Notes: generated by a model from the letters alone, not told the origin. 64,000 bases of DNA from Candidatus Daviesbacteria bacterium (GCA_016176335.1 JACOXI010000004.1:18303-82302); one strand, 5' to 3'. Counted from the first letter of the stretch, positions 8,015 to 63,941 are shown. Numbers and translations are program-made.

Positions 8015-8209
8015 ATGAATGATCAAAATCAAAACACTTGCATGGCATGTTCTTGCCCATGTGACATGCACAAAGAACACAGTCACTCAACCGAAAAAGC
8101 AGGTACGCAGAAGGAACATTCAATGACTTGCTCAAAATGCGGGCTTAAAGCAAAAGATCCTGGGGAAATGGAAGAGCATGGAAAAGCTCACCAGGGAGGA
8201 CAAATGTGA
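8015..8209 (+). CDS. Small Cys/His-rich protein, 64 aa; putative metal-binding
   Basis: GGAGG at 7999-8003 and ATG at 8015. Product contains CMACSCPCDMHKEHSHS and CSKCGLKAKDPGEMEEHGKAH. The GTG at 8003 in the ORF track is probably not the real start. Confidence 0.5.
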   Translation: MNDQNQNTCMACSCPCDMHKEHSHSTEKAGTQKEHSMTCSKCGLKAKDPGEMEEHGKAHQGGQM

Positions 8210-9561
8210 GGAAAAAATTTGATGTTTTAGTTGTTGGTTCAGGAGCCGGTCTTGAGGTGGCATCTTTTGCTGCCGAGCGCGGTCTGTCTGTTGCAATAGT
8301 TGAGGAAGGTCCGCTGGGTGGGACTTGTTTAAACAGAGGTTGTATTCCTTCAAAAATGTTAATCCATTCATCGGATGTTTTGGAGACTATTAAAAGCAGT
8401 GAGAAATTTGGCATTAAAAGCAAAATAGAGGGAATTGATTTTGCCTCTATTGTCAAAAGGGTGTCAGAAGTTGTTGACAGCGATTCTGTTGGTATAGAGA
8501 AAAGTATCAGAGAAAATGGCAACCCTACCCTTTATAAGATGAGGGGCAAATTTATTGGACCTAAGCTAATGCAGGTAGGTGATGAACAAATAGAAGGAGA
8601 GAAAGTTTTTATTGTGGGAGGAACCAGGCCTTCAATTCCTCCTCTTCCCGGTCTCGAAATTACACCATATCTTGATAGCACCAAGGCTTTAAGGCTGGAA
8701 AAACAGCCTGAGCATATGGTTATTATAGGGGGTGGTTATATTGCGGCAGAACTGGCTCATTTTTATGGAGCCTTGGGAACTCAAATTACTATCTTAGTCC
8801 GGGGGAAGAGAATGCTCGACAAGGAGGATGAAGAAATAGCAGACTGGTTTACTAAAGAATTTTCTAAAAAATATCAGATCTTATTTAATGCTGAAGCGGA
8901 GGCAGTTTCATACCAGGATGGCAAATTTACCATTAAATTAAAGGGTGATGGGAACAACAAAATTTATGCAGATCAACTGCTGGTGGCAGCCGGCAGAGTT
9001 CCCAACACTGATATATTGGAGGTATCCGCAACAGGAGTTGAGATGGATGATAAAGGATTTATCAAAGTTAATGAGTATTTAGAAACTAATGTAGAAGGAG
9101 TATGGGCTTTTGGAGACATTTTAGGCATTTTACCTTTTAGGCATACTGCCAATGACCAGGTGGGCTTTTCCATCAGTAATGCTTTTACAGATAAAAAAGT
9201 AGCATTTGATCCTTTTGCCATTGGCCATGCGGTTTTCTCTTCACCACAGGTTGGTGGAGTTGGTAAAACAGAGCAAGAGCTAAAAAAGATGGGCATTAAA
9301 TATAAAGTTGGAAGAGAGGAGCTTAAAAATACTGCTATGGGAGGAGCTTTGCAGGAAAATGGTTTGGCCAAAGTTATCACAGATGAAACAGGCAAGAAAA
9401 TCTTAGGTGTCCATATTATTGGTCCGCAAGCTTCAATATTAATTCATGAAGCCATAGTGGCTATGAAAGGAAATGGCACAGTAGATGCCATTACCCAATC
9501 GGTTTATATTCATCCTGCTTTACCTGAATGGTTACAAAGAGCATTTTTTGATATTGCATAA
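8206..9561 (+). CDS. Class I pyridine nucleotide-disulfide oxidoreductase (dihydrolipoamide dehydrogenase / glutathione-reductase-like)
   Basis: Redox-active disulfide motif GGTCLNRGCIPSK. FAD (GSGAGL) and NAD (GGGYIAAE) Rossmann motifs. No C-terminal Cys pair, so it is not MerA. Confidence 0.85.
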   Translation: MRKKFDVLVVGSGAGLEVASFAAERGLSVAIVEEGPLGGTCLNRGCIPSKMLIHSSDVLETIKSSEKFGIKSKIEGIDFASIVKRVSEVVDSDSVGIEKSIRENGNPTLYKMRGKFIGPKLMQVGDEQIEGEKVFIVGGTRPSIPPLPGLEITPYLDSTKALRLEKQPEHMVIIGGGYIAAELAHFYGALGTQITILVRGKRMLDKEDEEIADWFTKEFSKKYQILFNAEAEAVSYQDGKFTIKLKGDGNNKIYADQLLVAAGRVPNTDILEVSATGVEMDDKGFIKVNEYLETNVEGVWAFGDILGILPFRHTANDQVGFSISNAFTDKKVAFDPFAIGHAVFSSPQVGGVGKTEQELKKMGIKYKVGREELKNTAMGGALQENGLAKVITDETGKKILGVHIIGPQASILIHEAIVAMKGNGTVDAITQSVYIHPALPEWLQRAFFDIA

Positions 9562-9562
9562 T

Positions 9563-10090
9563 ATGTATAACCAAAAGAAACTTTTAGAATTTAGAAAACA
9601 AAAAGATAAGGCTTGGAAAAATGATGCAGAGTCTCCTTTAACGCAGGAGCAAAGACAAGAGTTTAAAGGCTTGAATTATTTTCCGCCTAATCCCAGTTTA
9701 AATTTTGAATTGGAGCTTGATAAAAATATACCGGATGTTGGTAAAAAGGTGGCTATTAAAACAACTAGTGGAGATGAGCAAATTTATCTAAGAGCTGGCA
9801 AGGTTAAATTTAGCGTTGAAGGTACTGATGTGGAGGCTATTGTTTTTGAAGATCCTGATCAAGAACAGTTTCGATATTATCTACTTTTTAGAGACCTAAC
9901 AACTGGAAAAGAAACTTATGAAAACGGCAGAATGTTACAAATTCCTCAAAAAGGAAATCAATTAATAATTGATTTTAATTACACCTATAATCCATATAGT
10001 TCATACAATGATCAATGGGATTGTCCAATAACCCTGGAAGAAAATATTTTGCCTGTAGCAATCAAGGCAGGTGAGAAGAAATTTCACTAA
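9563..10090 (+). CDS. DUF1684 family protein
   Basis: C-terminal YNPYSSYNDQWDCPITLEEN matches the DUF1684 signature. Start chosen at the ATG just after the upstream stop; the ORF track begins at 9485, inside the upstream gene. Confidence 0.6.
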   Translation: MYNQKKLLEFRKQKDKAWKNDAESPLTQEQRQEFKGLNYFPPNPSLNFELELDKNIPDVGKKVAIKTTSGDEQIYLRAGKVKFSVEGTDVEAIVFEDPDQEQFRYYLLFRDLTTGKETYENGRMLQIPQKGNQLIIDFNYTYNPYSSYNDQWDCPITLEENILPVAIKAGEKKFH

Positions 10091-10617: not shown

Positions 10618-10674
10618 AAAGAATAGTAGATGGAGTTACTATTGTCTTAAATAATGGCTCAATTGTCAGATATG

Positions 10675-10757
10675 TGGCCAGGGAGAGAGTCGAACTCTCA
10701 TGAGGTTGCCCTCAATAGTTTTTGAGACTATCCTGTCTGCCATTCCAGCACCTGGCC
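10675..10757 (-). tRNA. tRNA-Leu (anticodon CAA)
   Basis: Minus-strand read: acceptor GGCCAGG/CCTGGCC, D-loop GGAATGGCAGAC, anticodon stem ATAGT/ACTAT with loop CTCAAAA (anticodon CAA), long variable arm GAGG..CCTC, T-arm GAGAG-TTCGACT-CTCTC, discriminator A. CCA is not encoded. Confidence 0.9.
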
Positions 10758-10849: not shown

Positions 10850-13390
10850 ATGAAAAATACCCACAGACTGCCGGTACATGTTAAACCAGAGCGTTACAAG
10901 ATCATGCTCAAACCTGATTTGGAAAACTTTATCTTTGAAGGAGAAGAAACAATTTATCTAAATCTGGAAAAACCAAGCAAAGAAATTATTTTGCATTCAG
11001 CTGATCTGGAAATAGAATCTGTGGAGTGGATTCACCGGGGTGAAGAAATCTGGGCTGGGAAAATCTCATATGACAAAAAAAGAGAGACTGCCACATTTAC
11101 TTTCCCAAAATCTCTGGAAAAAGGAAAGGGTGAGTTAAAATTTAAGTTTAAAGGGATTTTGAATGATAAGATGCGGGGTTTTTACAGAAGTAAGTTTGAA
11201 GTTGATGGAGTGGTCAAACACCTGGCTACCACCCAATTTGAATCAACTGATGCCAGGAGAGCTTTTCCCTGTTTTGATGAGCCTTCCCAAAAAGCTATTT
11301 TTGATGTGACCTTGATGATCCCGTCGCATATGGTGGCCATTTCCAACACCATTGAATCAAATGTCTGGGAGCATGAAACAGGGGTAAGGGTGGTGGAATT
11401 TGAACCGACCCCAAAAATGTCCACTTACCTTTTAGCCTTTATTGTGGGGGAGTTTGAATATATAGAAGGGAAAAGGGGAAAGGGTGAAGTGGTAAGGGTT
11501 TTCACTACACCAGGGAAGAAGGATCAAGCCAAATTTGCCCTTGATGTGGCCATTAAATGTATGGATTTTTATGAAGATTATTTTGATATTCCATATCCCC
11601 TTCCGGTTTTGGACTTAATAGCCATTCCGGATTTTACTGCAGGAGCAATGGAAAATTGGGGAGCAGTCACTTACAGGGAATCGACTCTTCTTTTTGATCC
11701 TAAAAAGTCATCAGTAGGGAATAAGCAATGGATAGCATTAGTAATTGCCCACGAGTTGGCTCATCAGTGGTTTGGCAATCTGGTGACTATGGAGTGGTGG
11801 ACCCATCTTTGGCTAAATGAAGGATTTGCCTCATTTATTGAATATCTGGCAATTGATCATATTTTTCCTGATTGGGATATCTGGACTCAATTTGTAGCAA
11901 TTGAGACGGAAGAAGCCTTACGCTTAGATTCTTTAAAGAATACTCACCCGATTGAGGTGGAAGTAGGTCATCCGGCGGAGATCAGTGAGATTTTTGATAA
12001 GGTTTCTTATTCCAAGGGAGCATCAATCCTAAGAATGCTTTGGCAATATTTAGGGCCAAAATTTTTCCAAAAAGGACTGCAGTATTATTTAAAGAAACAT
12101 GCCTATGGTAATGCTCAAACAGAAGATTTATGGAATGCTTTAGGGGAAGTTTCAGGTAAGCCGGCTGGGAAGATCATGGCCAATTGGACATCGAAGCCCG
12201 GACATCCACTGATTACAGTTTCAGAACATAATGATAAATTAAAACTTACCCAATCCAGATTTTTCTCCAGTACAATTTCTAAAAGAGAAACTAAAGATGA
12301 TACAGTTTGGAGTATCCCCCTAAAATATCAAAACTCAAATGTCAAATCTCAAAACTACATGTTAAATGTCAAAACTATGAATATTCCTAAACCAAAAGAT
12401 ATGGAATGGATTAAGTTGAACGACGGGGAAGTGAGTTTTGTCAGGGTTGATTATCCGCAAGAATACTTGCAAAAACTGGAGTCAGCTATTAGAACCGGAC
12501 AATTATCTGCTCCAGACAGATTAGGACTCATCAGGGATACTTTTGATTTAGCGCAAAACGGGGCAAGTCCAACCACCTTGGCGCTGGAATTGGCCCTAAG
12601 CTATAAAAATGAAGAAGACTATACTGTCTGGAGTGAACTGACAGGAAAATTGGCTCAACTGGATTCGCTTTTATACTTTGAGAATTTTTATGAGGACTTT
12701 AAAAGATACGGAAGGGAAATTTATGGCGGAGTGGCAAATAGAATGGGATGGGAAAAGAGAAAGGGAGAAAAGTATACAGATGCGCTTTTAAGAGGGATGG
12801 TTTTACTAAGAATTGGGGCATTTGGTGATGAGGGAACCATCAAGCATGCACTGGGGCTGTTTAAAAGCAGTAGCAAGATCGCCCCGGACCTTCGTGGAGT
12901 AGTTTACAACTTGGTGGCAGAAAACGGGGGAGAGACAGAATTTAAGACCTTACTTAAAATGTACAAAGATGAAGATAACCAGCAGGAAAAAGACAGGATA
13001 GGAAGGGCTTTGGGACAACCTAAGATTAAATCTCTCCTGCAAAAGACTTTAAACTTTTCAATTTCCAAAGATGTCAGGTTTCAAAATACTTTGGGGATGA
13101 TTGCTGCAGTTTGGGGAAATGCTGAAGGCAGATATCTGGCCTGGGAGTTTGTCAAAAGTAACTGGAAGTTACTGAAAGAAAGATATGCCGGAGGGCATTA
13201 TTTTACCAGAGTTTTTGGCTCTGCAGGGGAGTTTACTAAAATTTCCGATGCCAAAGATATAGAGTCCTTTGCAAGGAACAATCCCACCCCTGAAGCTAAA
13301 AGAACCATAGCCCAGGCTTTAGAACAAATTTATTCCAATGTGGAATGGTTAAAAAGAGATAAAGAGAAGATTAAGAGCTTCTTAAGTTAA
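10850..13390 (+). CDS. pepN: Aminopeptidase N (M1 family zinc metallopeptidase)
   Basis: GAMEN motif and HELAHQWFGNLVTMEWW...E zinc-binding motif. 846 aa. Confidence 0.9.
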   Translation: MKNTHRLPVHVKPERYKIMLKPDLENFIFEGEETIYLNLEKPSKEIILHSADLEIESVEWIHRGEEIWAGKISYDKKRETATFTFPKSLEKGKGELKFKFKGILNDKMRGFYRSKFEVDGVVKHLATTQFESTDARRAFPCFDEPSQKAIFDVTLMIPSHMVAISNTIESNVWEHETGVRVVEFEPTPKMSTYLLAFIVGEFEYIEGKRGKGEVVRVFTTPGKKDQAKFALDVAIKCMDFYEDYFDIPYPLPVLDLIAIPDFTAGAMENWGAVTYRESTLLFDPKKSSVGNKQWIALVIAHELAHQWFGNLVTMEWWTHLWLNEGFASFIEYLAIDHIFPDWDIWTQFVAIETEEALRLDSLKNTHPIEVEVGHPAEISEIFDKVSYSKGASILRMLWQYLGPKFFQKGLQYYLKKHAYGNAQTEDLWNALGEVSGKPAGKIMANWTSKPGHPLITVSEHNDKLKLTQSRFFSSTISKRETKDDTVWSIPLKYQNSNVKSQNYMLNVKTMNIPKPKDMEWIKLNDGEVSFVRVDYPQEYLQKLESAIRTGQLSAPDRLGLIRDTFDLAQNGASPTTLALELALSYKNEEDYTVWSELTGKLAQLDSLLYFENFYEDFKRYGREIYGGVANRMGWEKRKGEKYTDALLRGMVLLRIGAFGDEGTIKHALGLFKSSSKIAPDLRGVVYNLVAENGGETEFKTLLKMYKDEDNQQEKDRIGRALGQPKIKSLLQKTLNFSISKDVRFQNTLGMIAAVWGNAEGRYLAWEFVKSNWKLLKERYAGGHYFTRVFGSAGEFTKISDAKDIESFARNNPTPEAKRTIAQALEQIYSNVEWLKRDKEKIKSFLS

Positions 13391-14370
13391 GAAACTTCAT
13401 AATATACACCTTTGGTGGTGCCTCTTTTTTTAATTAAACCAGCATCAGATAGTTTTTTCAGATCATATCTTAAGGTTCTTTCATTGACTGATAAAAATCT
13501 CCGTCTTAAAGTATCAAAATTAACCATTCTATGTTCTTTTATAATATTTAAAATTTCAGCCCGGCGGGGAAGTAATATATCCTCAACTTTTAACTCATCT
13601 TTTTTTAGAAACTGCTCTTTAACCTCCTTGGCAGTTTCTGCAATTGCTTCTAAAATAAATTCCACATAATCTGTGACATCTTTTTCTGATGATTCCAACA
13701 CTGTGTAATACTCACTCCTGTGATTATCCAAGTATTCCTCCAAAGGCAAAATACCTTTCATGCCGTAGCCTTCTTTTTGTAAAACAGCTTGTAGCAATAA
13801 TCTACCCACTCTGCCGTTTCCATCTAAAAATGGGTGTATTTTTTCAAAGGATAAATGCACCAGTGCAGCTTTTATTGGTGCAAATTGTTCTTTTTTAGAA
13901 TTTGCAAATTTTATTAATATTTTGATAAGGGGCAGTATTTGAGAAGGTCTGGGGGGAAGATAAATGGCAATTCCGGCAGAATTAAAAATAGCTCCAACCT
14001 CTGTTCTAAATTTTCCCACATCCTGTTTTGAGGCTAAGTCTGCCATCACCACTTTGTGAAGCCTTAATATATCCTGCAATTTCAAATCTTTTGATCTTCT
14101 CACATAAACCCAATTTAAAGCTTTCAAGATGTTGAAAACTTCTTTAAGTTTTTGAGACTTTGAAGATGTTTTAGGTAACTCATCCAATCTTAGGGTATTT
14201 CCCTCAATCCGTGCAGAAAAAAGTGAGGATTTAAGGGTGGATTTTCTTCTGATGTTGGTTTCCAGCTCTTTAGGTATTTCAATTGAGTTTATAACTTCTT
14301 TTGAGGCCTCAATAGAGGAAAGTAATTGAGATATTTTATTGGTGAGAATATACTTTGGTGGAATTAGCAT
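13387..14370 (-). CDS. Fic/DOC family protein (class II, with inhibitory S/TxxxE(G/N) motif and C-terminal winged helix)
   Basis: Fic motif HPFLDGNGRVGR. Inhibitory-helix motif SARIEGN. C-terminal wHTH-like RTLRYDLKKLSDAGLIKK. Start taken at the internal ATG at 14370; the longer ORF to 14529 runs through an upstream tandem repeat. Confidence 0.8.
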   Translation of the reverse strand: MLIPPKYILTNKISQLLSSIEASKEVINSIEIPKELETNIRRKSTLKSSLFSARIEGNTLRLDELPKTSSKSQKLKEVFNILKALNWVYVRRSKDLKLQDILRLHKVVMADLASKQDVGKFRTEVGAIFNSAGIAIYLPPRPSQILPLIKILIKFANSKKEQFAPIKAALVHLSFEKIHPFLDGNGRVGRLLLQAVLQKEGYGMKGILPLEEYLDNHRSEYYTVLESSEKDVTDYVEFILEAIAETAKEVKEQFLKKDELKVEDILLPRRAEILNIIKEHRMVNFDTLRRRFLSVNERTLRYDLKKLSDAGLIKKRGTTKGVYYEVS

Positions 14371-14375
14371 AGTTT

Positions 14376-14427
14376 TCCTAATATTTCCAGATATTACCAG
14401 ATATTTCCTAATATTTCCAGATACAAA
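14376..14427. repeat. Tandem direct repeat (~2 copies of ~25 nt, ccagatatttcctaatatttccagat) in the Fic upstream region
   Basis: The sequence atatttccagatattaccagatatttcctaatatttccagata is visible directly. Confidence 0.6.
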
Positions 14428-14566
14428 TGTGGAATGGTTAAAAGGGATAAGGAAGGGATTAAGAAATTTTTGAAGCAGTTGGAACTTTAGATACAAAGTT
14501 GAAAGCAAAATCAAACCTCCTTGGCACAAAACAAAGGATGTATGATAAAATTCATAGAATAAATAT

Positions 14567-15130
14567 ATGGCCTTAAATGTTAATGAACTCCGAAACGGGA
14601 CGTTTTTTAAAGAAGGTTCAACAATATTCCAGGTTTTGCTTTATGAGCATGTTAAAACCGGCAGGGGTTCCGGAAATATCAAACTTAAAGTCAGAAATGT
14701 TCGCTCCGGTGCTGTTTTAGAAAAATCCTTTATTACCGGTGCCAGAGTTGATGAGGCTGATGTAGAAAAGAAAAAAGCCCAATTTTTATACAAAGATGGT
14801 GATAGTTTTAATTTCATGGATCCTCAAACTTTTGAGCAGTTTTCACTTTCGTCATCTGTTTTGGGTGAGCAAGCAAAATATCTGGTAGATGGGTTAGAGA
14901 TAACTTTGGTTGTGGGTGAGGGGGAGGCGCTTGGTTTGGAATTACCTATGAGTTTGGTGTACGAAGTTGCAGAAACAGGTCCGGGGGAGCGGGGCAATAC
15001 TGTTTCCAATGTTTATAAAGAAGCTATTTTAGACAATGGATTGGTAGTTAAGGTACCGATGTTTTTGAAAGCAGGAGAAAAAGTGAAGGTAGATACTAGA
15101 ACTGGAACTTACATAGAACGCGTTAAATGA
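14567..15130 (+). CDS. efp: Elongation factor P
   Basis: 187 aa. KDGDSFNFMDPQTFEQF and the KOW/OB domain organisation typical of EF-P. Confidence 0.9.
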   Translation: MALNVNELRNGTFFKEGSTIFQVLLYEHVKTGRGSGNIKLKVRNVRSGAVLEKSFITGARVDEADVEKKKAQFLYKDGDSFNFMDPQTFEQFSLSSSVLGEQAKYLVDGLEITLVVGEGEALGLELPMSLVYEVAETGPGERGNTVSNVYKEAILDNGLVVKVPMFLKAGEKVKVDTRTGTYIERVK

Positions 15131-15240
15131 TCTCAAATCTTAGATCTCAAAACTCAAATCTACATCTTAAAACTCAAAACTTTAAAGATTTAAGATTTGA
15201 GTTGTAGTTTTGACATTTGAGTTTTGACATTTGAGATACT
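15131..15240. repeat. Modular intergenic hairpin repeat (CAAAT/ATTTG heptamer-based family), copy 1
   Basis: Left arm tctcaaatcttagatctcaaaactcaaatctacatcttaaaactcaaaac and a near-inverted right arm. The 36-nt unit aaagttttgagttttaagatgtagatttgagttttg recurs inverted at 18705-18742. Confidence 0.7.
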
Positions 15241-15252
15241 ATAGTAAAGATT

Positions 15253-16140
15253 ATGGCAAAAAAGATTACTAAAGCACTAATACCTGCAGCCGGGTTTGGA
15301 ACTCGTTTCCTTCCTCAAACCAAAGCCATGCCTAAAGAGATGTTACCTATTGTGGACAAACCCGTGATCCAGTACGTGGTGGAAGAAGTGGTGGCATCAG
15401 GCATAGAAAACATTATTTTGGTGACAGGCGGAACAAAGCGGGCAATAGAGGATCATTTTGATGCGCCCAATGAAGATTTGGTGCAGAATTTAACAAACGG
15501 CAAAAAAACAGCTCTGTTGGAACAAATAAAACATATCTCTCAAATGGCCAACTTTATTTATGTCCGCCAAAAAGGACCATATGGAAATGGCACTCCTGTT
15601 TTGGCAGGAGAAGCTGTGATTGAGGATGAGCCTTTTGCAGTTCTTTGGGGAGATGAATTTATCTTATCAAACCCGCCGAGGTTACAACAAATGATCAAGG
15701 TTTTCGAAAAATATGGAGGAATGGTGATATCCGGTGTCAAAATAGAAAAGAAAGAAGACTTAAAAAGATATGGAATTGCCGATTTAGAGCCGGTTTCAGG
15801 CAATGTTTATAAAATCAAAAAAATCGTGGAAAAGCCGGATCCTGATCTTGCGCCCTCTGATATAGCAACCCACGGGGCATACATCCTTCCCCCGGAAATC
15901 TTCCCCGCATTAAAAAAGCAAACTGTTGGTCAGGGAGGGGAGATTTGGCTTGTTGATGCGATCAATACGCTCAAAGATGAGGGGATGCCTTTGTATGCAG
16001 TGGTTGTAGAAAATGGGAGATATTATGATACCGGAAATAAGTTGGAATATATGAAAACCGCAGTGGAGTTAGCCTTAAAGCACCCGGAAGTAGGGGAGGA
16101 TTTGAAAAAGTATCTTGCGGAATTAGTGGAAAAATCTTGA
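15253..16140 (+). CDS. galU: UTP--glucose-1-phosphate uridylyltransferase
   Basis: N-terminal ALIPAAGFGTRFLPQTKAMPKEMLPIVDKPVIQYVVEE. Confidence 0.9.
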   Translation: MAKKITKALIPAAGFGTRFLPQTKAMPKEMLPIVDKPVIQYVVEEVVASGIENIILVTGGTKRAIEDHFDAPNEDLVQNLTNGKKTALLEQIKHISQMANFIYVRQKGPYGNGTPVLAGEAVIEDEPFAVLWGDEFILSNPPRLQQMIKVFEKYGGMVISGVKIEKKEDLKRYGIADLEPVSGNVYKIKKIVEKPDPDLAPSDIATHGAYILPPEIFPALKKQTVGQGGEIWLVDAINTLKDEGMPLYAVVVENGRYYDTGNKLEYMKTAVELALKHPEVGEDLKKYLAELVEKS

Positions 16141-17910: not shown

Positions 17911-18700
17911 ACCCCCAATGAATCTTAGGAAAGTATATGAAGATGAAGATTTACTGGTTATTGACAAACCACCTGGTTTGGTAGTTGAACCCACCAAAAC
18001 AGCTAAAGCCCCAACTCTTGCCGAAATTTTGCAAAAGAGTCATGGAATTGATTTGGAAAGGGGAGGATTAATTCATAGGTTGGATAAAGATACTTCGGGA
18101 GTTTTGCTGGTTGCCAAAACCCAAAAGGCTTTGGCCAACTTACAAGCACAATTTAAGCAAAGAAAAACTAAAAAAGAATATTTGGCGCTGGTACATGGGT
18201 TTGTGGACAAAGAGGGGCAAGTGGAAGGGAACATTGGCAGGAATCCTATTAAAAGAGAGAAGTTTACAGTATTGGCAGATGAAGGCAAGGAGGCAGTTAC
18301 GGAGTATGAACCGGTAGGAAATTTTCAATTTTCAATTTTCAATTTTCAATCAATTTTCAATGATTTAAATGAGATTCAAATGAGGAAACTGGAAAGAATG
18401 AAATATAACCAATTTACTCTGCTGTCCTGTCGTCCTCTTACTGGACGGACACACCAAATTAGGGTACATTTAAAGTATATAAATCATCCGATTGTTTCGG
18501 ACCAAATTTATGCGGGCAGGAAAATGTACAGGTTAGATAAAAGATGGTGTCCAAGGCAATTTTTGCATGCTAAAAAGATTGGATTTTATCATCCTCGGAG
18601 CGGGAAGTGGATGGAGTTGGAGAGTGAGTTACCCTATGATTTAGAAAATGCATTGGGTAATCTCAAATCTCAAATGTCAAATGTCAAAACTATAACTTAA
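17885..18700 (+). CDS. RluA-family pseudouridine synthase (RluD-like) carrying an in-frame heptamer-repeat insertion
   Basis: Catalytic motif HRLDKDTSGVLLVAKT and GRTHQIRVHL. An NFQFSIFNFQSIF stretch is encoded by (ttttcaa)n at about 18320-18362. Confidence 0.85.
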   Translation: MSLVPKRLKPPMNLRKVYEDEDLLVIDKPPGLVVEPTKTAKAPTLAEILQKSHGIDLERGGLIHRLDKDTSGVLLVAKTQKALANLQAQFKQRKTKKEYLALVHGFVDKEGQVEGNIGRNPIKREKFTVLADEGKEAVTEYEPVGNFQFSIFNFQSIFNDLNEIQMRKLERMKYNQFTLLSCRPLTGRTHQIRVHLKYINHPIVSDQIYAGRKMYRLDKRWCPRQFLHAKKIGFYHPRSGKWMELESELPYDLENALGNLKSQMSNVKTIT

Positions 18701-18762
18701 ATCTTTAAAGTTTTGAGTTTTAAGATGTAGATTTGAGTTTTGCGATTTACGTTTTGAGTTAT
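18655..18762. repeat. Modular intergenic hairpin repeat, copy 2 (overlaps the last codons of the rluA-family gene)
   Basis: tctcaaatctcaaatgtcaaatgtcaaaac...aaagttttgagttttaagatgtagatttgagttttgcgatttacgttttgag. Shares units with 15131-15240 and 57335-57520. Confidence 0.7.
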
Positions 18763-33008: not shown

Positions 33009-33802
33009 GAATTCAAAATGTTTTTCAAACTGCCTTCGGCAGAACAAAATTCAAAATTCAAAATTACAATTCAAAATTTAAAATTTTTAAAACTTTTTAC
33101 TTTTTACTTGCATTTTTGACTTTTAATTTTTACCTTTTAACTTTTCCCACCCCTGCGCTTGCCCAAGCCGCCACCCTGTCCCTTTCTCCCTCCTCGGGCA
33201 CATTTAACAGGAGCTGTACCATTACTTTGGATATCAGATTGGATACAGCGGGAGCTCAAACAGACGGTACAGATGCGATCTTAACTTATGACTCATCAAG
33301 ACTTACTGCTACCTCAATTACAAGCGGAAATATCTATCCTGATTATCCCGGAAATAATATTGATGATACGAACGGGAAGATTACTGTTTCAGGTTTAGCC
33401 TCTGTTTCTTCTGCTTTTTCCGGGCAAGGAAGTGTTGCTACGGTCAAATTTACGATTAAAGATAACGCTCCAACAGGTGCAACTCAAGTCAAGTTTGATT
33501 TTGACCCGTCCGATAAAAGTAAAACTACAGATTCCAATGTAGTACAAAGAGGTACTGCTTCGGATATATTAAGTTCGGTGGTGAATGGAAATTATAATGT
33601 TGGAACAGGCACATGCGCCGCCGCACCCGCAACAGCCGTAAAAGGAGGACAAGGAGCTGTTTCCACACCATCAGGTAAAACTCTCGATCAGTTAGTAGAC
33701 AAAACAGGAAAAGGACCAGGCACACCCGAGCTCACCTTTACCCTGACAATTGTGGGATCGGTTTTGGTAGTGTTGGGAATTTTAGGATTGGCACTACTCT
33801 AA
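33005..33802 (+). CDS. Cohesin-domain protein with signal peptide and C-terminal membrane anchor (paralog of 32424..33008)
   Basis: ILTYDSSRLTATSITSGNIYPDY, NGKITVSGLAS and GSVATVKFTIKDNAPTGATQVKF match the cohesin consensus. C-terminal TM LTIVGSVLVVLGILGLALL. The N-terminal ~30 codons are built from the repeat family (ctgccttcggcagaacaaa + attcaaa units). Confidence 0.65.
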   Translation: MRIQNVFQTAFGRTKFKIQNYNSKFKIFKTFYFLLAFLTFNFYLLTFPTPALAQAATLSLSPSSGTFNRSCTITLDIRLDTAGAQTDGTDAILTYDSSRLTATSITSGNIYPDYPGNNIDDTNGKITVSGLASVSSAFSGQGSVATVKFTIKDNAPTGATQVKFDFDPSDKSKTTDSNVVQRGTASDILSSVVNGNYNVGTGTCAAAPATAVKGGQGAVSTPSGKTLDQLVDKTGKGPGTPELTFTLTIVGSVLVVLGILGLALL

Positions 33803-57334: not shown

Positions 57335-57520
57335 CAAAATAATCTCAAATGTTAGATCTTAAATGTCAATCCTTCGATTACACTCAGGATGATACTGAGC
57401 GAAGTCGAAGTATCAAAACTACAACTTTTAACTGCCTTCGGCAGAACAAATCTAAAATCTACTAAAAAGTTTTAAGATTTACGATATAGATTTGCGTTTT
57501 GCGATTTGAGTTTTGAGTTA
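57335..57520. repeat. Modular intergenic hairpin repeat, copy 4 (composite)
   Basis: aatctcaaatgttagatcttaaatgtcaat...ctgagcgaagtcgaagtatc...ctgccttcggcagaacaaa...gatttgcgttttgcgatttgagttttgag. Shares sub-modules with 15131, 18655, 33803, 33018-33090 and 45900-45950. Confidence 0.65.
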
Positions 57521-63018: not shown

Positions 63019-63941
63019 TGTGGTGGGGATCAGCAGGTTTTGTCATTGGTACAATTTTAGGGAGTTTTGTTAAGGTGCTGGCTGATCGGAGTTTAAACAA
63101 CAGGTCTTTTTGGGGAAGGTCATACTGCCCTAAGTGCAAACATCAATTGCACTGGTACGATCTTATTCCTATTGTTTCATATATTAACCTTACAGGTAGG
63201 TGTCGTTATTGTAATAAAAAGATAGGTTCAGAATATATCCTGGTTGAAGTGGTAATGGGTGTTTTGGTGGGTTTTCTCTTTTGGCAAAGCTCATCAAATT
63301 TTCAATTTTCAATTCTTAATTTTCAATCAATACTTAATTTTCAATTTTCAATTTTTTTGCTGGAACTGGTTCTTAAAACTTTTTTTGTCGTCATACTTTT
63401 GGCGCTTTTTATTACGGATTTTAAAAAAATGCTTATTCCCGATAGGATTATCATTCCGTCCATAGTTTTAGGAATAATAGCCAACCTACTGCTTGTTTTT
63501 TTAAAAACAGGTTATCTTTATTTTTACCTTTCCCAAAATATAATTGGCAAGTTTCTTCTCCCCCCGCACAGTGACTATTTCAGGAGGCATGCTCTGATGA
63601 TTGCGGAGCCTTTTTTGTATTCTGTAGTTTTGGCCATGGCAATTGGCGGATTTTTTTTAAGTTTGATCATTATTACCAAAGGTAGAGGAATGGGAGGCGG
63701 AGATGTAAAATTAGGTATATTTTTAGGGTTGATGTTAGGTTTCCCCCAGGCTGTTTTGGCAATGGTTTTGGCGTTTATTATCGGTGCTGTCTTTTCCATA
63801 TTCTTAATACTTTTAAAGAAAAAAAGATGGGGTCAGATAATAGCTTTTGGCCCTTTTTTGGTTTTGGGAAGTTTCATTACTCTTTTTTGGGGCAATCAGA
63901 TTTTAGAGTGGTATCTGCATATACTACTGCCTGCTACTTGA
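63006..63941 (+). CDS. pilD: Prepilin peptidase PilD (A24 family), carrying an in-frame heptamer-repeat insertion
   Basis: N-terminal zinc ribbon CPKCKHQL...CRYCNKKI and catalytic Asp regions. NFQFSILNFQSILNFQFSIF is encoded by (ttttcaa)-type repeats at about 63295-63355. Confidence 0.8.
   Translation: MYLLMWWGSAGFVIGTILGSFVKVLADRSLNNRSFWGRSYCPKCKHQLHWYDLIPIVSYINLTGRCRYCNKKIGSEYILVEVVMGVLVGFLFWQSSSNFQFSILNFQSILNFQFSIFLLELVLKTFFVVILLALFITDFKKMLIPDRIIIPSIVLGIIANLLLVFLKTGYLYFYLSQNIIGKFLLPPHSDYFRRHALMIAEPFLYSVVLAMAIGGFFLSLIIITKGRGMGGGDVKLGIFLGLMLGFPQAVLAMVLAFIIGAVFSIFLILLKKKRWGQIIAFGPFLVLGSFITLFWGNQILEWYLHILLPAT

What the first reader, a model, noticed from the sequence alone, without database searches (positions are those of the whole stretch)
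13337..14480. Fic-family gene inserted at the 3' end of pepN between imperfect direct repeats
The last ~54 nt of pepN (13337-13390, aatgtggaatggttaaaaagagataaagagaagattaagagcttcttaag) recur 1.09 kb downstream at 14426-14480 (aatgtggaatggttaaaagggataaggaagggattaagaaatttttgaag). An 18-nt core is identical and the rest has diverged. The Fic/DOC gene sits exactly between the two copies on the opposite strand. It has the HPFLDGNGRVGR motif, an SxxxEGN inhibitory motif and a C-terminal winged helix. A ~25-nt tandem repeat lies in its promoter region. This is the footprint of an insertion that duplicated, or carried, the target gene's 3' end. It marks the Fic module as accessory or mobile.
Basis: seen in the sequence. 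Interest (0 to 1): 0.6.

Follow-up and report, generated by a model that had tools for sequence, protein, structure and literature searches.

The report
Old Fic-gene insertion scar in pepN
A self-contained Fic (SoFic-type) enzyme gene was inserted long ago into the last codons of the pepN aminopeptidase gene of a Daviesbacteria lineage, leaving a duplicated about 50-base pepN tail on either side; this is a real but fairly ordinary scar of gene relocation.

Summary
Window 13332-13386 (the pepN tail) recurs at 14421-14475, 1,089 nt downstream. An 18-nt core is identical, and the match scores far above shuffles and above anything else in the window. Correcting one base in copy B gives a full pepN C-terminus (NVEWLKRDKEGIKKFLKQLEL*), and copy B lies 76 nt from efp, as in relatives with no insert. 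The 1,039 nt in between hold only a 327-aa class II Fic-wHTH gene (SoFic/CccR type) and a 10-bp-phased repeat array upstream of its start codon.

In relatives, pepN->efp adjacency is ancestral. Every Fic at least 80% identical to this one lies between pepN and efp, mostly with the same pepN-tail remnant. Every Fic at 60-78% identity with recognisable neighbours lies at rpsF-ssb/ychF. The pepN-locus genes form one clade nested inside that group.

I read this as a single ancient relocation that was then inherited vertically under purifying selection, not an active mobile cassette. No integrase, transposase or terminal inverted repeats were found. The repeat array accompanies the gene at both loci and is probably its autoregulatory operator. 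The pepN-efp gap also collects toxin-antitoxin genes in other genomes. The insertion mechanism remains unresolved.

The parts
10850..13390 (+). pepN, an M1-family aminopeptidase of 846 aa; the target gene
   Evidence: Pfam Peptidase_M1_N, Peptidase_M1 and ERAP1_C, E 1e-53 to 1e-91. Orthologues are 62-78% identical in Daviesbacteria loci.
13332..13386 (+). Copy A: the functional pepN tail (…SNVEWLKRDKEKIKSFL). It is cut off just after FL, at the junction with the Fic 3' end.
   Evidence: Alignment with copy B. The same junction sequence TTCTTAARTxA-GAAACTTCATAATATACACC is present in L081, L082 and L086.
13387..14370 (-). Fic gene, 327 aa: a class II (self-inhibited) Fic AMP-transferase with a C-terminal winged helix (SoFic/CccR type). 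Its stop codon overlaps the pepN stop.
   Evidence: Pfam Fic 69.5 bits. PADLOC SoFic profile E 9.8e-57. AlphaFold2 model pLDDT 81; Foldseek full-length matches to SoFic 3zec/3eqx and CccR 7xux, E about 1e-10. A 100% identical protein is annotated as Daviesbacteria Fic.
14200..14217 (-). Codons for the inhibitory-helix motif SARIEG (residues 52-57)
   Evidence: Regex (S/T)xxxE(G/N). S52, A53, E56 and G57 are invariant in 25 homologues and R54 is nearly invariant. CccR has the same S59ARIEG motif (PMC9755527).
13801..13836 (-). Codons for the Fic active-site motif HPFLDGNGRVGR (residues 179-190)
   Evidence: Invariant or nearly invariant in 25 homologues.
13390..13587 (-). Winged helix-turn-helix domain of Fic (about residues 262-327)
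   Evidence: Pfam HTH_DeoR, residues 269-315, 21.8 bits against a cut-off of 21. The model shows H262-265, H268-280, E282-284, H285-291, H297-309, E313-316 and E323-326. Partial Foldseek matches to the HlyU/SqrR winged-helix proteins.
14371..14424 (-). Array of 4-5 direct GGNAATAT units with exactly 10-bp spacing, ending at the Fic ATG. Probably the promoter/operator that travels with the gene.
   Evidence: Tandem Repeats Finder: period 10, 4.3 copies. The pattern occurs nowhere else in the window, and 0 of 100 shuffles reached the observed count. An array with 10-nt spacing lies upstream of the ATG in 23 of 24 family members, at both the pepN and the rpsF/ychF loci.
14421..14490 (+). Copy B: the displaced, frameshifted original 3' end of pepN (pseudo-tail, …NVEWLK[R]DKEGIKKFLKQLEL*), 76 nt upstream of efp
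   Evidence: Equivalent remnants lie upstream of Fic in L081/L097, L086, L082/L098 and L004, and in the Fic-less gaps of L021, L003 and L001.
14567..15130 (+). efp (elongation factor P); the ancestral immediate downstream neighbour of pepN
   Evidence: Pfam EFP_N, EFP and Elong-fact-P_C. The order pepN-efp-galU is conserved in relatives.

Best explanation
**What happened.** In an ancestor of one Daviesbacteria subclade, a compact unit was copied or moved into the last codons of pepN. The unit consists of a SoFic/CccR-type Fic-wHTH gene and the 10-bp-phased repeat array at its start. It came from the family's older position at rpsF-ssb/ychF, either in the same genome or in a relative's.

**The resulting structure.**
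- The event left a direct duplication of at least 50 nt of the pepN tail.
- The proximal copy (A) still completes pepN. It ends right after 'FL', and its stop codon overlaps the Fic stop.
- The distal copy (B) is the displaced original 3' end. It is now a frameshifted pseudo-tail at the normal distance from efp.

**What followed.** The unit has since been inherited vertically under purifying selection. In some lineages it was lost or remodelled, for example L003, L021 and L001. The two copies have occasionally undergone gene conversion.

**Shown versus inferred.**
- Shown: the duplication, the exact content of the insert, the ancestral pepN-efp adjacency, the clean split between the two loci, and the monophyly of the pepN-locus Fic genes.
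- Inferred: the physical mechanism. The most likely route is recombinase-independent. One option is a Campbell-type single crossover of a circular fragment that carried a pepN tail. Another is a staggered-break or template-switch insertion.
- Inferred: the repeat array is the operator bound by the Fic protein's own winged-helix domain, and the enzyme AMPylates a cellular target such as EF-Tu, possibly for anti-phage defence.
For: **The duplication is real.**
- It is statistically well above background.
- Copy B translates to a complete pepN C-terminus after a 1-nt correction.
- Copy B sits 76 nt from efp. Empty sites have pepN-efp gaps of 0-136 nt.

**The insert is minimal.** Positions 13387-14425 run exactly from the Fic stop codon to the end of the repeat array.

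**Relatives support a single old event.**
- The order pepN-efp-galU is conserved in 26 Daviesbacteria-level loci, and efp directly follows pepN in deeper lineages as well.
- All Fic genes at least 80% identical lie pepN<-Fic->efp: L004, L081-86, L097-101 and L118.
- All Fic genes at 60-78% identity with recognisable neighbours lie at rpsF-ssb/ychF.
- In a neighbour-joining tree, the pepN-locus Fic genes form one clade nested inside the rpsF/ychF group.
- Remnants of the pepN tail lie upstream of Fic in L081/L097 (E 5e-8 and 1.8e-7), L086 (5e-8), L082/L098 (5.5e-4 and 2e-3) and, weakly, L004.

**Decayed versions still sit between the two copies.**
- L003 keeps the repeat array and a 70-aa winged-helix-only stub of Fic between copy A and copy B.
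- L021 keeps a 'CCAGATA' array relic next to its remnant.

**Sequence evolution fits.**
- Fic identity is 80-89%, against 71-78% for pepN and 69-82% for full-length efp matches.
- In L081, copies A and B share 40 identical nt that include lineage-specific changes, which points to gene conversion.

**Function.**
- PADLOC SoFic profile E 1e-56, and a full-length fold match to SoFic and CccR.
- CccR represses its own promoter through its HTH domain (PMC9755527).
- SoFic binds the 100 bp upstream of its own start codon and AMPylates EF-Tu (bioRxiv 10.64898/2026.07.09.737422).
Against: - The pepN tree is star-like. Fic-bearing genomes are interspersed with empty-site genomes. A single origin therefore needs several losses, and repeated gains are not excluded.
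- The remnants in L001 and L003 extend 12-21 nt further left than the window's copy. Either the original duplication was longer or these were separate events.
- B copies resemble the functional tails of L003 and L021 (84-90%) more than they resemble their own A copies (75-80%). That fits an imported replacement tail better than a simple target duplication. The difference rests largely on one K/G codon.
- No genome was available in full, so I could not check whether the rpsF/ychF site is empty where Fic sits at pepN. Relocation and duplication cannot yet be told apart.
- Operator binding, enzyme activity and a defence role were not tested.
Confidence: 0.72

Rival explanations
1. This is the decayed remnant of an integrase-borne island or prophage. 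On this reading, the element integrated site-specifically in the pepN 3' end and carried its own replacement pepN tail, as phage 21 and e14 do in E. coli icd. Fic was cargo at the edge of the element and everything else was later deleted.
For: - Direct repeats consist of the target gene's 3' end, and the gene is restored by the proximal copy.
- An identical 18-20 nt core is followed by divergent distal parts.
- B copies are closer to other genomes' native tails than to their own A copies.
- The same gap holds other toxin-antitoxin-type cargo with remnants in L001 and L003.
Against: - No integrase, excisionase or phage gene is present in the insert, in any relative's pepN-efp gap, or in the Fic-side flanks of the loci with called genes.
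- The insert boundaries coincide exactly with the Fic stop codon and the repeat array.
- The Fic family's older home is a chromosomal housekeeping locus, not a mobile element.
- The core 18-mer in IMG/VR gave only 7 in-CDS matches in two unrelated gene families, with no flanking homology, i.e. chance matches.
Confidence: 0.13
2. The conserved pepN-tail core (AATGTGGAATGGTTAAAAAGRGA) is a recurrent attachment site. On this reading, different small cassettes (Fic, DUF2283/PBECR, retropepsin, HicAB) were delivered independently in different genomes by an unidentified trans-acting recombination system.
For: - Remnants with different left boundaries and different cargo occur in L001, L003 and the Fic group.
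- The core is essentially invariant in non-coding remnants of 6 of 8 genomes, whereas the flanking intergenic DNA cannot be aligned.
- The pepN-efp gap varies from 0 to 2.6 kb.
Against: - L003 still holds the Fic winged-helix stub and repeat array between A and B, so its remnant can derive from the same event.
- L021 holds an array relic next to its remnant.
- Gene conversion from the coding copy (seen in L081) can explain why the core is preserved.
- Much cargo lies outside the A-B interval, for example hicAB in L003 and the 97-aa ORF in L004, and VapC-like genes lie in L018, which has no remnant at all.
- No candidate recombinase was found.
Confidence: 0.1
3. Fic is ancestral between pepN and efp and was lost elsewhere, and the second pepN tail is an unrelated local duplication or a chance AT-rich similarity.
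For: Many relatives have a remodelled pepN-efp gap, so losses clearly do occur.
Against: - Direct pepN-efp adjacency extends to distant CPR lineages.
- The pepN-locus Fic genes are a derived clade within the rpsF/ychF-locus Fic genes.
- Chance is excluded by the shuffle results and the profile E-value.
- The duplication brackets the Fic unit exactly.
Confidence: 0.03

Closest known systems
SoFic / CccR-type class II Fic-wHTH AMP-transferases (Shewanella SoFic, PDB 3eqx/3zec; Yersinia CccR, PDB 7xux; the PADLOC 'SoFic' single-gene anti-phage system)
   Same: - The active-site motif HPFLDGNGRVGR is present.
- An intramolecular inhibitory helix SARIEG is present, identical to CccR's S59ARIEG.
- There is a C-terminal winged helix.
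- The predicted fold matches over the full length.
- PADLOC SoFic profile E 1e-56.
[quoted passage not shown] SoFic and CccR bind their own promoters in that region (PMC9755527; bioRxiv 10.64898/2026.07.09.737422).
   Different: - Only about 23% identical to SoFic. The protein scores far below the NCBIfam SoFic equivalog cut-off (66 against 550 bits).
- The putative operator is 4-5 direct repeats with 10-bp phasing, not the two palindromes reported for CccR.
- No downstream small antitoxin such as E. coli AS1 (PMC12249575) is possible, because the Fic 3' end overlaps pepN.
- The host is a CPR bacterium, where the gene behaves as a conserved, syntenic resident rather than a patchy defence-island gene.
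Integrative elements that target the 3' end of a protein gene and carry a replacement end (phage 21 / e14 in E. coli icd; recalled from general knowledge, not tested here)
   Same: - The target gene's 3' end is directly duplicated on both sides of the insert.
- The proximal copy keeps the gene intact.
- The distal copy is a displaced pseudo-end.
- An identical core is followed by diverged sequence.
   Different: - No integrase or any other element gene is present.
- The insert is a single 1-kb gene with its promoter.
- The event is ancient and fixed in a clade.
- No free or attP-bearing form was found.
Variable 'islets' or hotspots between conserved core genes that accumulate toxin-antitoxin and defence genes
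   Same: Across relatives, the pepN-efp gap holds HicAB, a PIN/VapC-like gene, a DUF2283 plus PBECR-like nuclease pair, a retropepsin-like gene and unknown small ORFs.
   Different: Here the flanking scar, a duplicated gene tail, is preserved and can be traced across species, which is unusual for such islets.

Membership tests
Class II Fic AMP-transferase with C-terminal wHTH (SoFic/CccR type) | Fic active-site motif HxFx(D/E)GNGRxxR | tested here: met
   HPFLDGNGRVGR at residues 179-190. Invariant or nearly invariant across 25 homologues. Pfam Fic 69.5 bits against a cut-off of 24.
Class II Fic AMP-transferase with C-terminal wHTH (SoFic/CccR type) | Inhibitory helix motif (S/T)xxxE(G/N) in the same chain, N-terminal to the Fic core | tested here: met
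   SARIEG at residues 52-57, inside predicted helix 34-55. S52, A53, E56 and G57 are invariant.
Class II Fic AMP-transferase with C-terminal wHTH (SoFic/CccR type) | [quoted passage not shown] | tested here: met
   HTH_DeoR 21.8 bits against a cut-off of 21, which is marginal. The AlphaFold2 model (pLDDT 81) has the helix and strand pattern of a winged helix at residues 262-326. Foldseek aligns the full length to SoFic 3zec_B (E 2.9e-10, TM 0.66) and CccR 7xux (E 5e-10).
Class II Fic AMP-transferase with C-terminal wHTH (SoFic/CccR type) | Match to curated SoFic family profiles | tested here: inconclusive
   PADLOC SoFic E 9.8e-57, covering profile positions 42-345 of 361. The NCBIfam SoFic equivalog scores only 66 bits against a cut-off of 550. 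The protein is therefore a family member but not an equivalog of SoFic.
Class II Fic AMP-transferase with C-terminal wHTH (SoFic/CccR type) | AMPylation activity, target (EF-Tu or FtsZ), phage defence, binding to its own promoter | not testable with these tools
   There is only indirect support. The 10-bp-phased array is conserved upstream of 23 of 24 family members. It is retained together with a winged-helix-only stub in L003.
Integrase-mediated genomic island / prophage with att duplication | Direct repeats made of the target's 3' end flank the insert, and the target gene is kept intact | tested here: met
Integrase-mediated genomic island / prophage with att duplication | Integrase (with or without excisionase) encoded within the element | tested here: not met
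   The insert encodes only Fic. None of the 20 gap ORFs scanned against Pfam had a recombinase domain; the remaining gap ORFs were only listed. None of the called genes in the Fic-side flanks of loci L081-L086 has one either.
Integrase-mediated genomic island / prophage with att duplication | An attP-bearing free element exists | tested here: not met
   The 18-mer core in IMG/VR gave 7 hits. All lie within the coding sequences of two unrelated gene families and show no flanking homology. The metagenome collection was not scanned for attP.
IS element / transposon | Transposase, terminal inverted repeats, short target-site duplication | tested here: not met
   There is no transposase ORF. The terminal inverted-repeat test scored 7.5 against shuffles of 7.3 +/- 1.2. 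The duplication is about 50 nt, far longer than typical target-site duplications.

The most novel reading that the evidence does not exclude
The invariant roughly 20-nt core of the pepN tail could be a genuine recombination (att-like) site. An as yet unknown, trans-acting system in Daviesbacteria/CPR would use it to capture single-gene cassettes, including Fic and toxin-antitoxin modules. That would make pepN-efp an integron-like hotspot without a local integrase.
Probability: 0.1. Interest if true: 0.6.

Novelty: new member of a known kind. Interest (0 to 1): 0.3.

Why it matters
- **A dated gene relocation in a streamlined genome.** This is a clean, traceable case of a single gene moving within a CPR lineage. 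CPR bacteria have few recognised mobile elements. The 50-nt scar has survived across species-level divergence, apparently with help from gene conversion.
- **An unusual distribution for a defence-type gene.** A SoFic-type, defence-associated Fic enzyme is a conserved and syntenic resident across Daviesbacteria. It is not a patchy island gene.
- **A directly testable operator.** The 4-5 GGNAATAT units at 10-bp spacing are a candidate operator for Fic-wHTH autoregulation. L003 provides a natural derivative that keeps only the winged helix and the array.
- **Scope.** None of this overturns current understanding.

Tried and rejected
1. **attP-bearing viruses.** I searched IMG/VR for the 18-mer core. 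The 7 exact hits belong to two unrelated phage gene families and have no extended homology, so I treat them as chance.
2. **A matching scar at the older locus.** I looked for a ychF-tail remnant upstream of Fic at the rpsF/ychF locus. None was found (scores 10.5-12.5).
3. **Microhomology at the left junction.** I considered recombination between ychF 'EFL' and pepN 'KFL' codons. The sequences are suggestive but too short and too diverged to support the idea.
4. **Terminal inverted repeats.** None are present at the insert ends.
5. **Copy B kept as the efp promoter.** This is unlikely. By eye, an independent TTGGCA…TGATAAAAT element lies downstream of copy B, although the scan tool did not list it because the spacer is 19 nt. 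In addition, L001 and L004 have other genes between the remnant and efp.
6. **Using A/B sequence 'types' to separate target duplication from an imported tail.** The result is ambiguous, because it hinges on one K/G codon that flips between lineages.
7. **Counting gains and losses on a pepN neighbour-joining tree.** The tree is star-like and unresolved.
8. **A second Fic or a second cassette in the window.** There is none.
9. **The rpsF/ychF locus in this genome.** It does not lie within the 64-kb window, so I could not tell relocation from duplication.


Full report
**1. The observation**

The window comes from a Candidatus Daviesbacteria (CPR/Microgenomates) genome, because the Fic protein is 100% identical to an NCBI Daviesbacteria entry.

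The local gene order is:
- tRNA-Leu(CAA), 10674-10757, minus strand
- pepN, 10850-13390, plus strand
- Fic, 13387-14370, minus strand
- efp, 14567-15130, plus strand
- galU, 15253-16140, plus strand

The pepN tail recurs 1,089 nt downstream.
- The exact 18-mer AATGTGGAATGGTTAAAA occurs only at 13337 and 14426, even with 3 mismatches allowed.
- The gapped alignment covers 13332-13386 versus 14421-14475 and scores 29.
- Randomised versions of the intergenic region gave mean 11.3, sd 2.0 and maximum 23.5, with 0 of 5000 reaching 29. The best score elsewhere in the window is 17.5.
- A nucleotide profile of 25 pepN tails detects copy B at E = 2e-6.
- Copy B has lost one A. With that restored it reads NVEWLKRDKEGIKKFLKQLEL*, a normal pepN C-terminus.

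The one correction is that the 'about 25-nt' promoter repeat is a 10-nt unit repeated 4.3 times.

**2. Anatomy of the insert**

- The homology between the copies ends at 13386. The Fic stop codon is the complement of 13387-13389.
- On the other side, the repeat array ends at 14424 and copy B starts at 14426. A weaker match extends back to 14421.
- The inserted DNA is therefore 13387-14425, 1,039 nt. It contains only the Fic ORF and about 55 nt of upstream array.
- Copy A completes pepN (…KSFLS*) and is cut off just after 'FL'. The same junction is present in L081, L082 and L086.
- Copy B continues to a full tail with its own stop at 14488-14490. It lies 76 nt from efp, within the 0-136 nt range of uninterrupted sites.
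- The insert has no terminal inverted repeats and encodes no recombinase.

**3. Relatives**

I fetched 80 pepN loci from species-representative genomes.
- In 26 Daviesbacteria-level loci the order pepN-efp-galU is conserved.
- Nine of these have pepN-efp gaps of 0-136 nt. Deeper lineages also have efp directly after pepN.
- Direct adjacency is therefore ancestral, and Fic is an insertion.

I then looked up the genomic contexts of Fic homologues and ran a metagenome scan. These gave a clean split.
- Every Fic at least 80% identical to the window's lies between pepN and efp, convergent with pepN: L004, L081-86, L097-101 and L118.
- Every Fic at 60-78% identity with recognisable neighbours lies between rpsF-ssb(-rpsR) and ychF.
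- In a neighbour-joining tree, the pepN-locus Fic genes form one clade nested inside the rpsF/ychF group.

The pepN-tail remnant is present upstream of Fic in L081/L097, L086, L082/L098 and, weakly, L004. It is absent in L085, L100 and L101.

Three Fic-less genomes still carry a remnant in the gap.
- L021 has a 'CCAGATA' relic of the repeat array next to its remnant.
- L003 keeps the repeat array and a 70-aa stub of Fic consisting only of the winged helix, between copy A and the remnant.
- L001 has other cargo between the copies.

Fic is 80-89% identical across the Fic-bearing genomes. pepN is 71-78% identical and full-length efp matches are 69-82% identical. Fic is therefore a selected resident gene.

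The simplest reading is one ancient insertion followed by vertical descent, with later losses and remodelling. The pepN tree is too star-like to count the events.

**4. How the duplication arose**

Two topologies fit the data.
- (a) A true target duplication, from a staggered break or a template switch.
- (b) A Campbell-type crossover, either by homologous recombination or by an integrase, with a circular molecule that already carried a pepN tail.

The evidence bearing on this choice is as follows.
- B copies resemble the native tails of L003 and L021 (84-90%) more than they resemble their own A copies (75-80%). This leans towards (b), but the difference depends largely on one K/G codon that flips among lineages.
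- In L081, copies A and B are identical over 40 nt that include lineage-specific substitutions. Gene conversion therefore operates between the copies.
- Gene conversion probably also explains why the 20-nt core is invariant in non-coding remnants while the neighbouring intergenic DNA cannot be aligned.
- No integrase or transposase appears in any relative's gap or in the flanks with called genes.
- The IMG/VR hits to the core are chance matches.

I favour a recombinase-independent event, but the mechanism is unresolved.

**5. What the gene is**

- Pfam Fic plus a marginal HTH_DeoR match.
- The motifs HPFLDGNGRVGR and SARIEG.
- PADLOC SoFic profile E 1e-56.
- An AlphaFold2 model with pLDDT 81, whose best full-length Foldseek matches are SoFic (3zec/3eqx), M. 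marinum Fic (7cb8) and CccR (7xux).

It is a class II, self-inhibited Fic AMP-transferase with a winged helix. It falls well below the NCBIfam SoFic equivalog cut-off, so it is a distant family member.

Published work provides the functional analogy.
- CccR represses its own promoter through its HTH domain (PMC9755527).
- SoFic binds the 100 bp upstream of its start codon and AMPylates EF-Tu (bioRxiv 10.64898/2026.07.09.737422).
- E. coli Sofic has a downstream antitoxin, AS1 (PMC12249575).

**6. The repeat array**

- On the Fic sense strand it consists of 4-5 GGNAATAT units at exactly 10-nt spacing, ending at or overlapping the ATG.
- It is present in 23 of 24 family members at both loci, down to 60% protein identity.
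- It is unique within the window.
- In L003 it is retained together with the winged-helix stub alone.

I infer that it is the promoter/operator bound by the protein's own winged helix. This has not been tested.

**7. The locus as a hotspot**

Across relatives the pepN-efp gap ranges from 0 to 2.6 kb. It holds HicA/HicB, a PIN-domain gene, a DUF2283 plus PBECR-like nuclease pair, a retropepsin-like gene, membrane proteins and unknown small ORFs.

**8. Verdict**

The finding is real, and its core interpretation as an insertion scar is correct. 'Accessory or mobile' overstates the case. This is an old, fixed relocation of a conserved gene and there is no sign of an active element. It is a new member of known kinds: a SoFic-type Fic gene, and an insertion with a duplicated target 3' end. 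Interest is modest, about 0.3. The most useful by-product is the testable operator array.

Noticed in passing
window 14371-14424; also L004, L081-L086, L094-L096, L100-L117, L123 upstream of each Fic ATG: An array of 4-5 GGNAATAT units at exactly 10-bp spacing is conserved upstream of 23 of 24 Fic family members, whichever locus they occupy. In many of them the ATG lies inside the last unit (…GGCAATATATGGTAAT…), which suggests a leaderless or near-leaderless transcript.
   Followed up: partly
L003 9005-9262 (minus strand): The Fic gene is reduced to its repeat array, its start codon and a 70-aa protein consisting only of the winged helix. The whole catalytic domain has been deleted internally. 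This is a natural separation of the DNA-binding part from the enzyme.
   Followed up: partly
pepN-efp gaps of L001, L003, L004, L011, L013, L016, L018, L021, L026: The gap is a variable islet holding HicA/HicB (L003), a PIN-domain gene with a small partner (L018), a DUF2283 plus PBECR-like nuclease pair (L001), a retropepsin-like protease (L003, and also near efp in L085) and several ORFs with no Pfam match.
   Followed up: partly
window 12323-12377, 15129-15235, 18659-18760, 33045-33145, 57489-57519, 63297-63355: Heptamer-based tandem repeats (AAATCTC / CTCAAAA and their complements) are dispersed through the window. One lies inside pepN, where it encodes KYQNSNVKSQNYMLNVKT in a loop that carries different lineage-specific insertions in L001, L007, L015, L025 and L026. 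After efp the repeats form an inverted pair that could act as a hairpin terminator.
   Followed up: partly
L022 8544-10430 versus window 8206-10090: The dihydrolipoyl-dehydrogenase-like and DUF1684-like genes lie upstream of pepN in the window. In L022 they lie between pepN and efp on the opposite strand, which indicates a local rearrangement at the same hotspot.
   Followed up: no
L004 2725-2838; L081 (pepN called as 727 + 93 aa): In L004 the pepN tail reads through 22 extra codons (…KNYCKNRSCQTNVSYGGHRILNPGA*) into the antisense of a neighbouring 209-aa ORF. In L081 pepN is split into two called ORFs, either by a frameshift or by an assembly error.
   Followed up: no
L095 5988-6002; L104 4969-4978; window 13387-13390: At both the rpsF/ychF locus and the pepN locus, the Fic 3' end overlaps the 3' end of a convergent housekeeping gene by 4-16 nt. 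Convergent overlapping transcription therefore appears to be a recurring feature of this gene's context.
   Followed up: no
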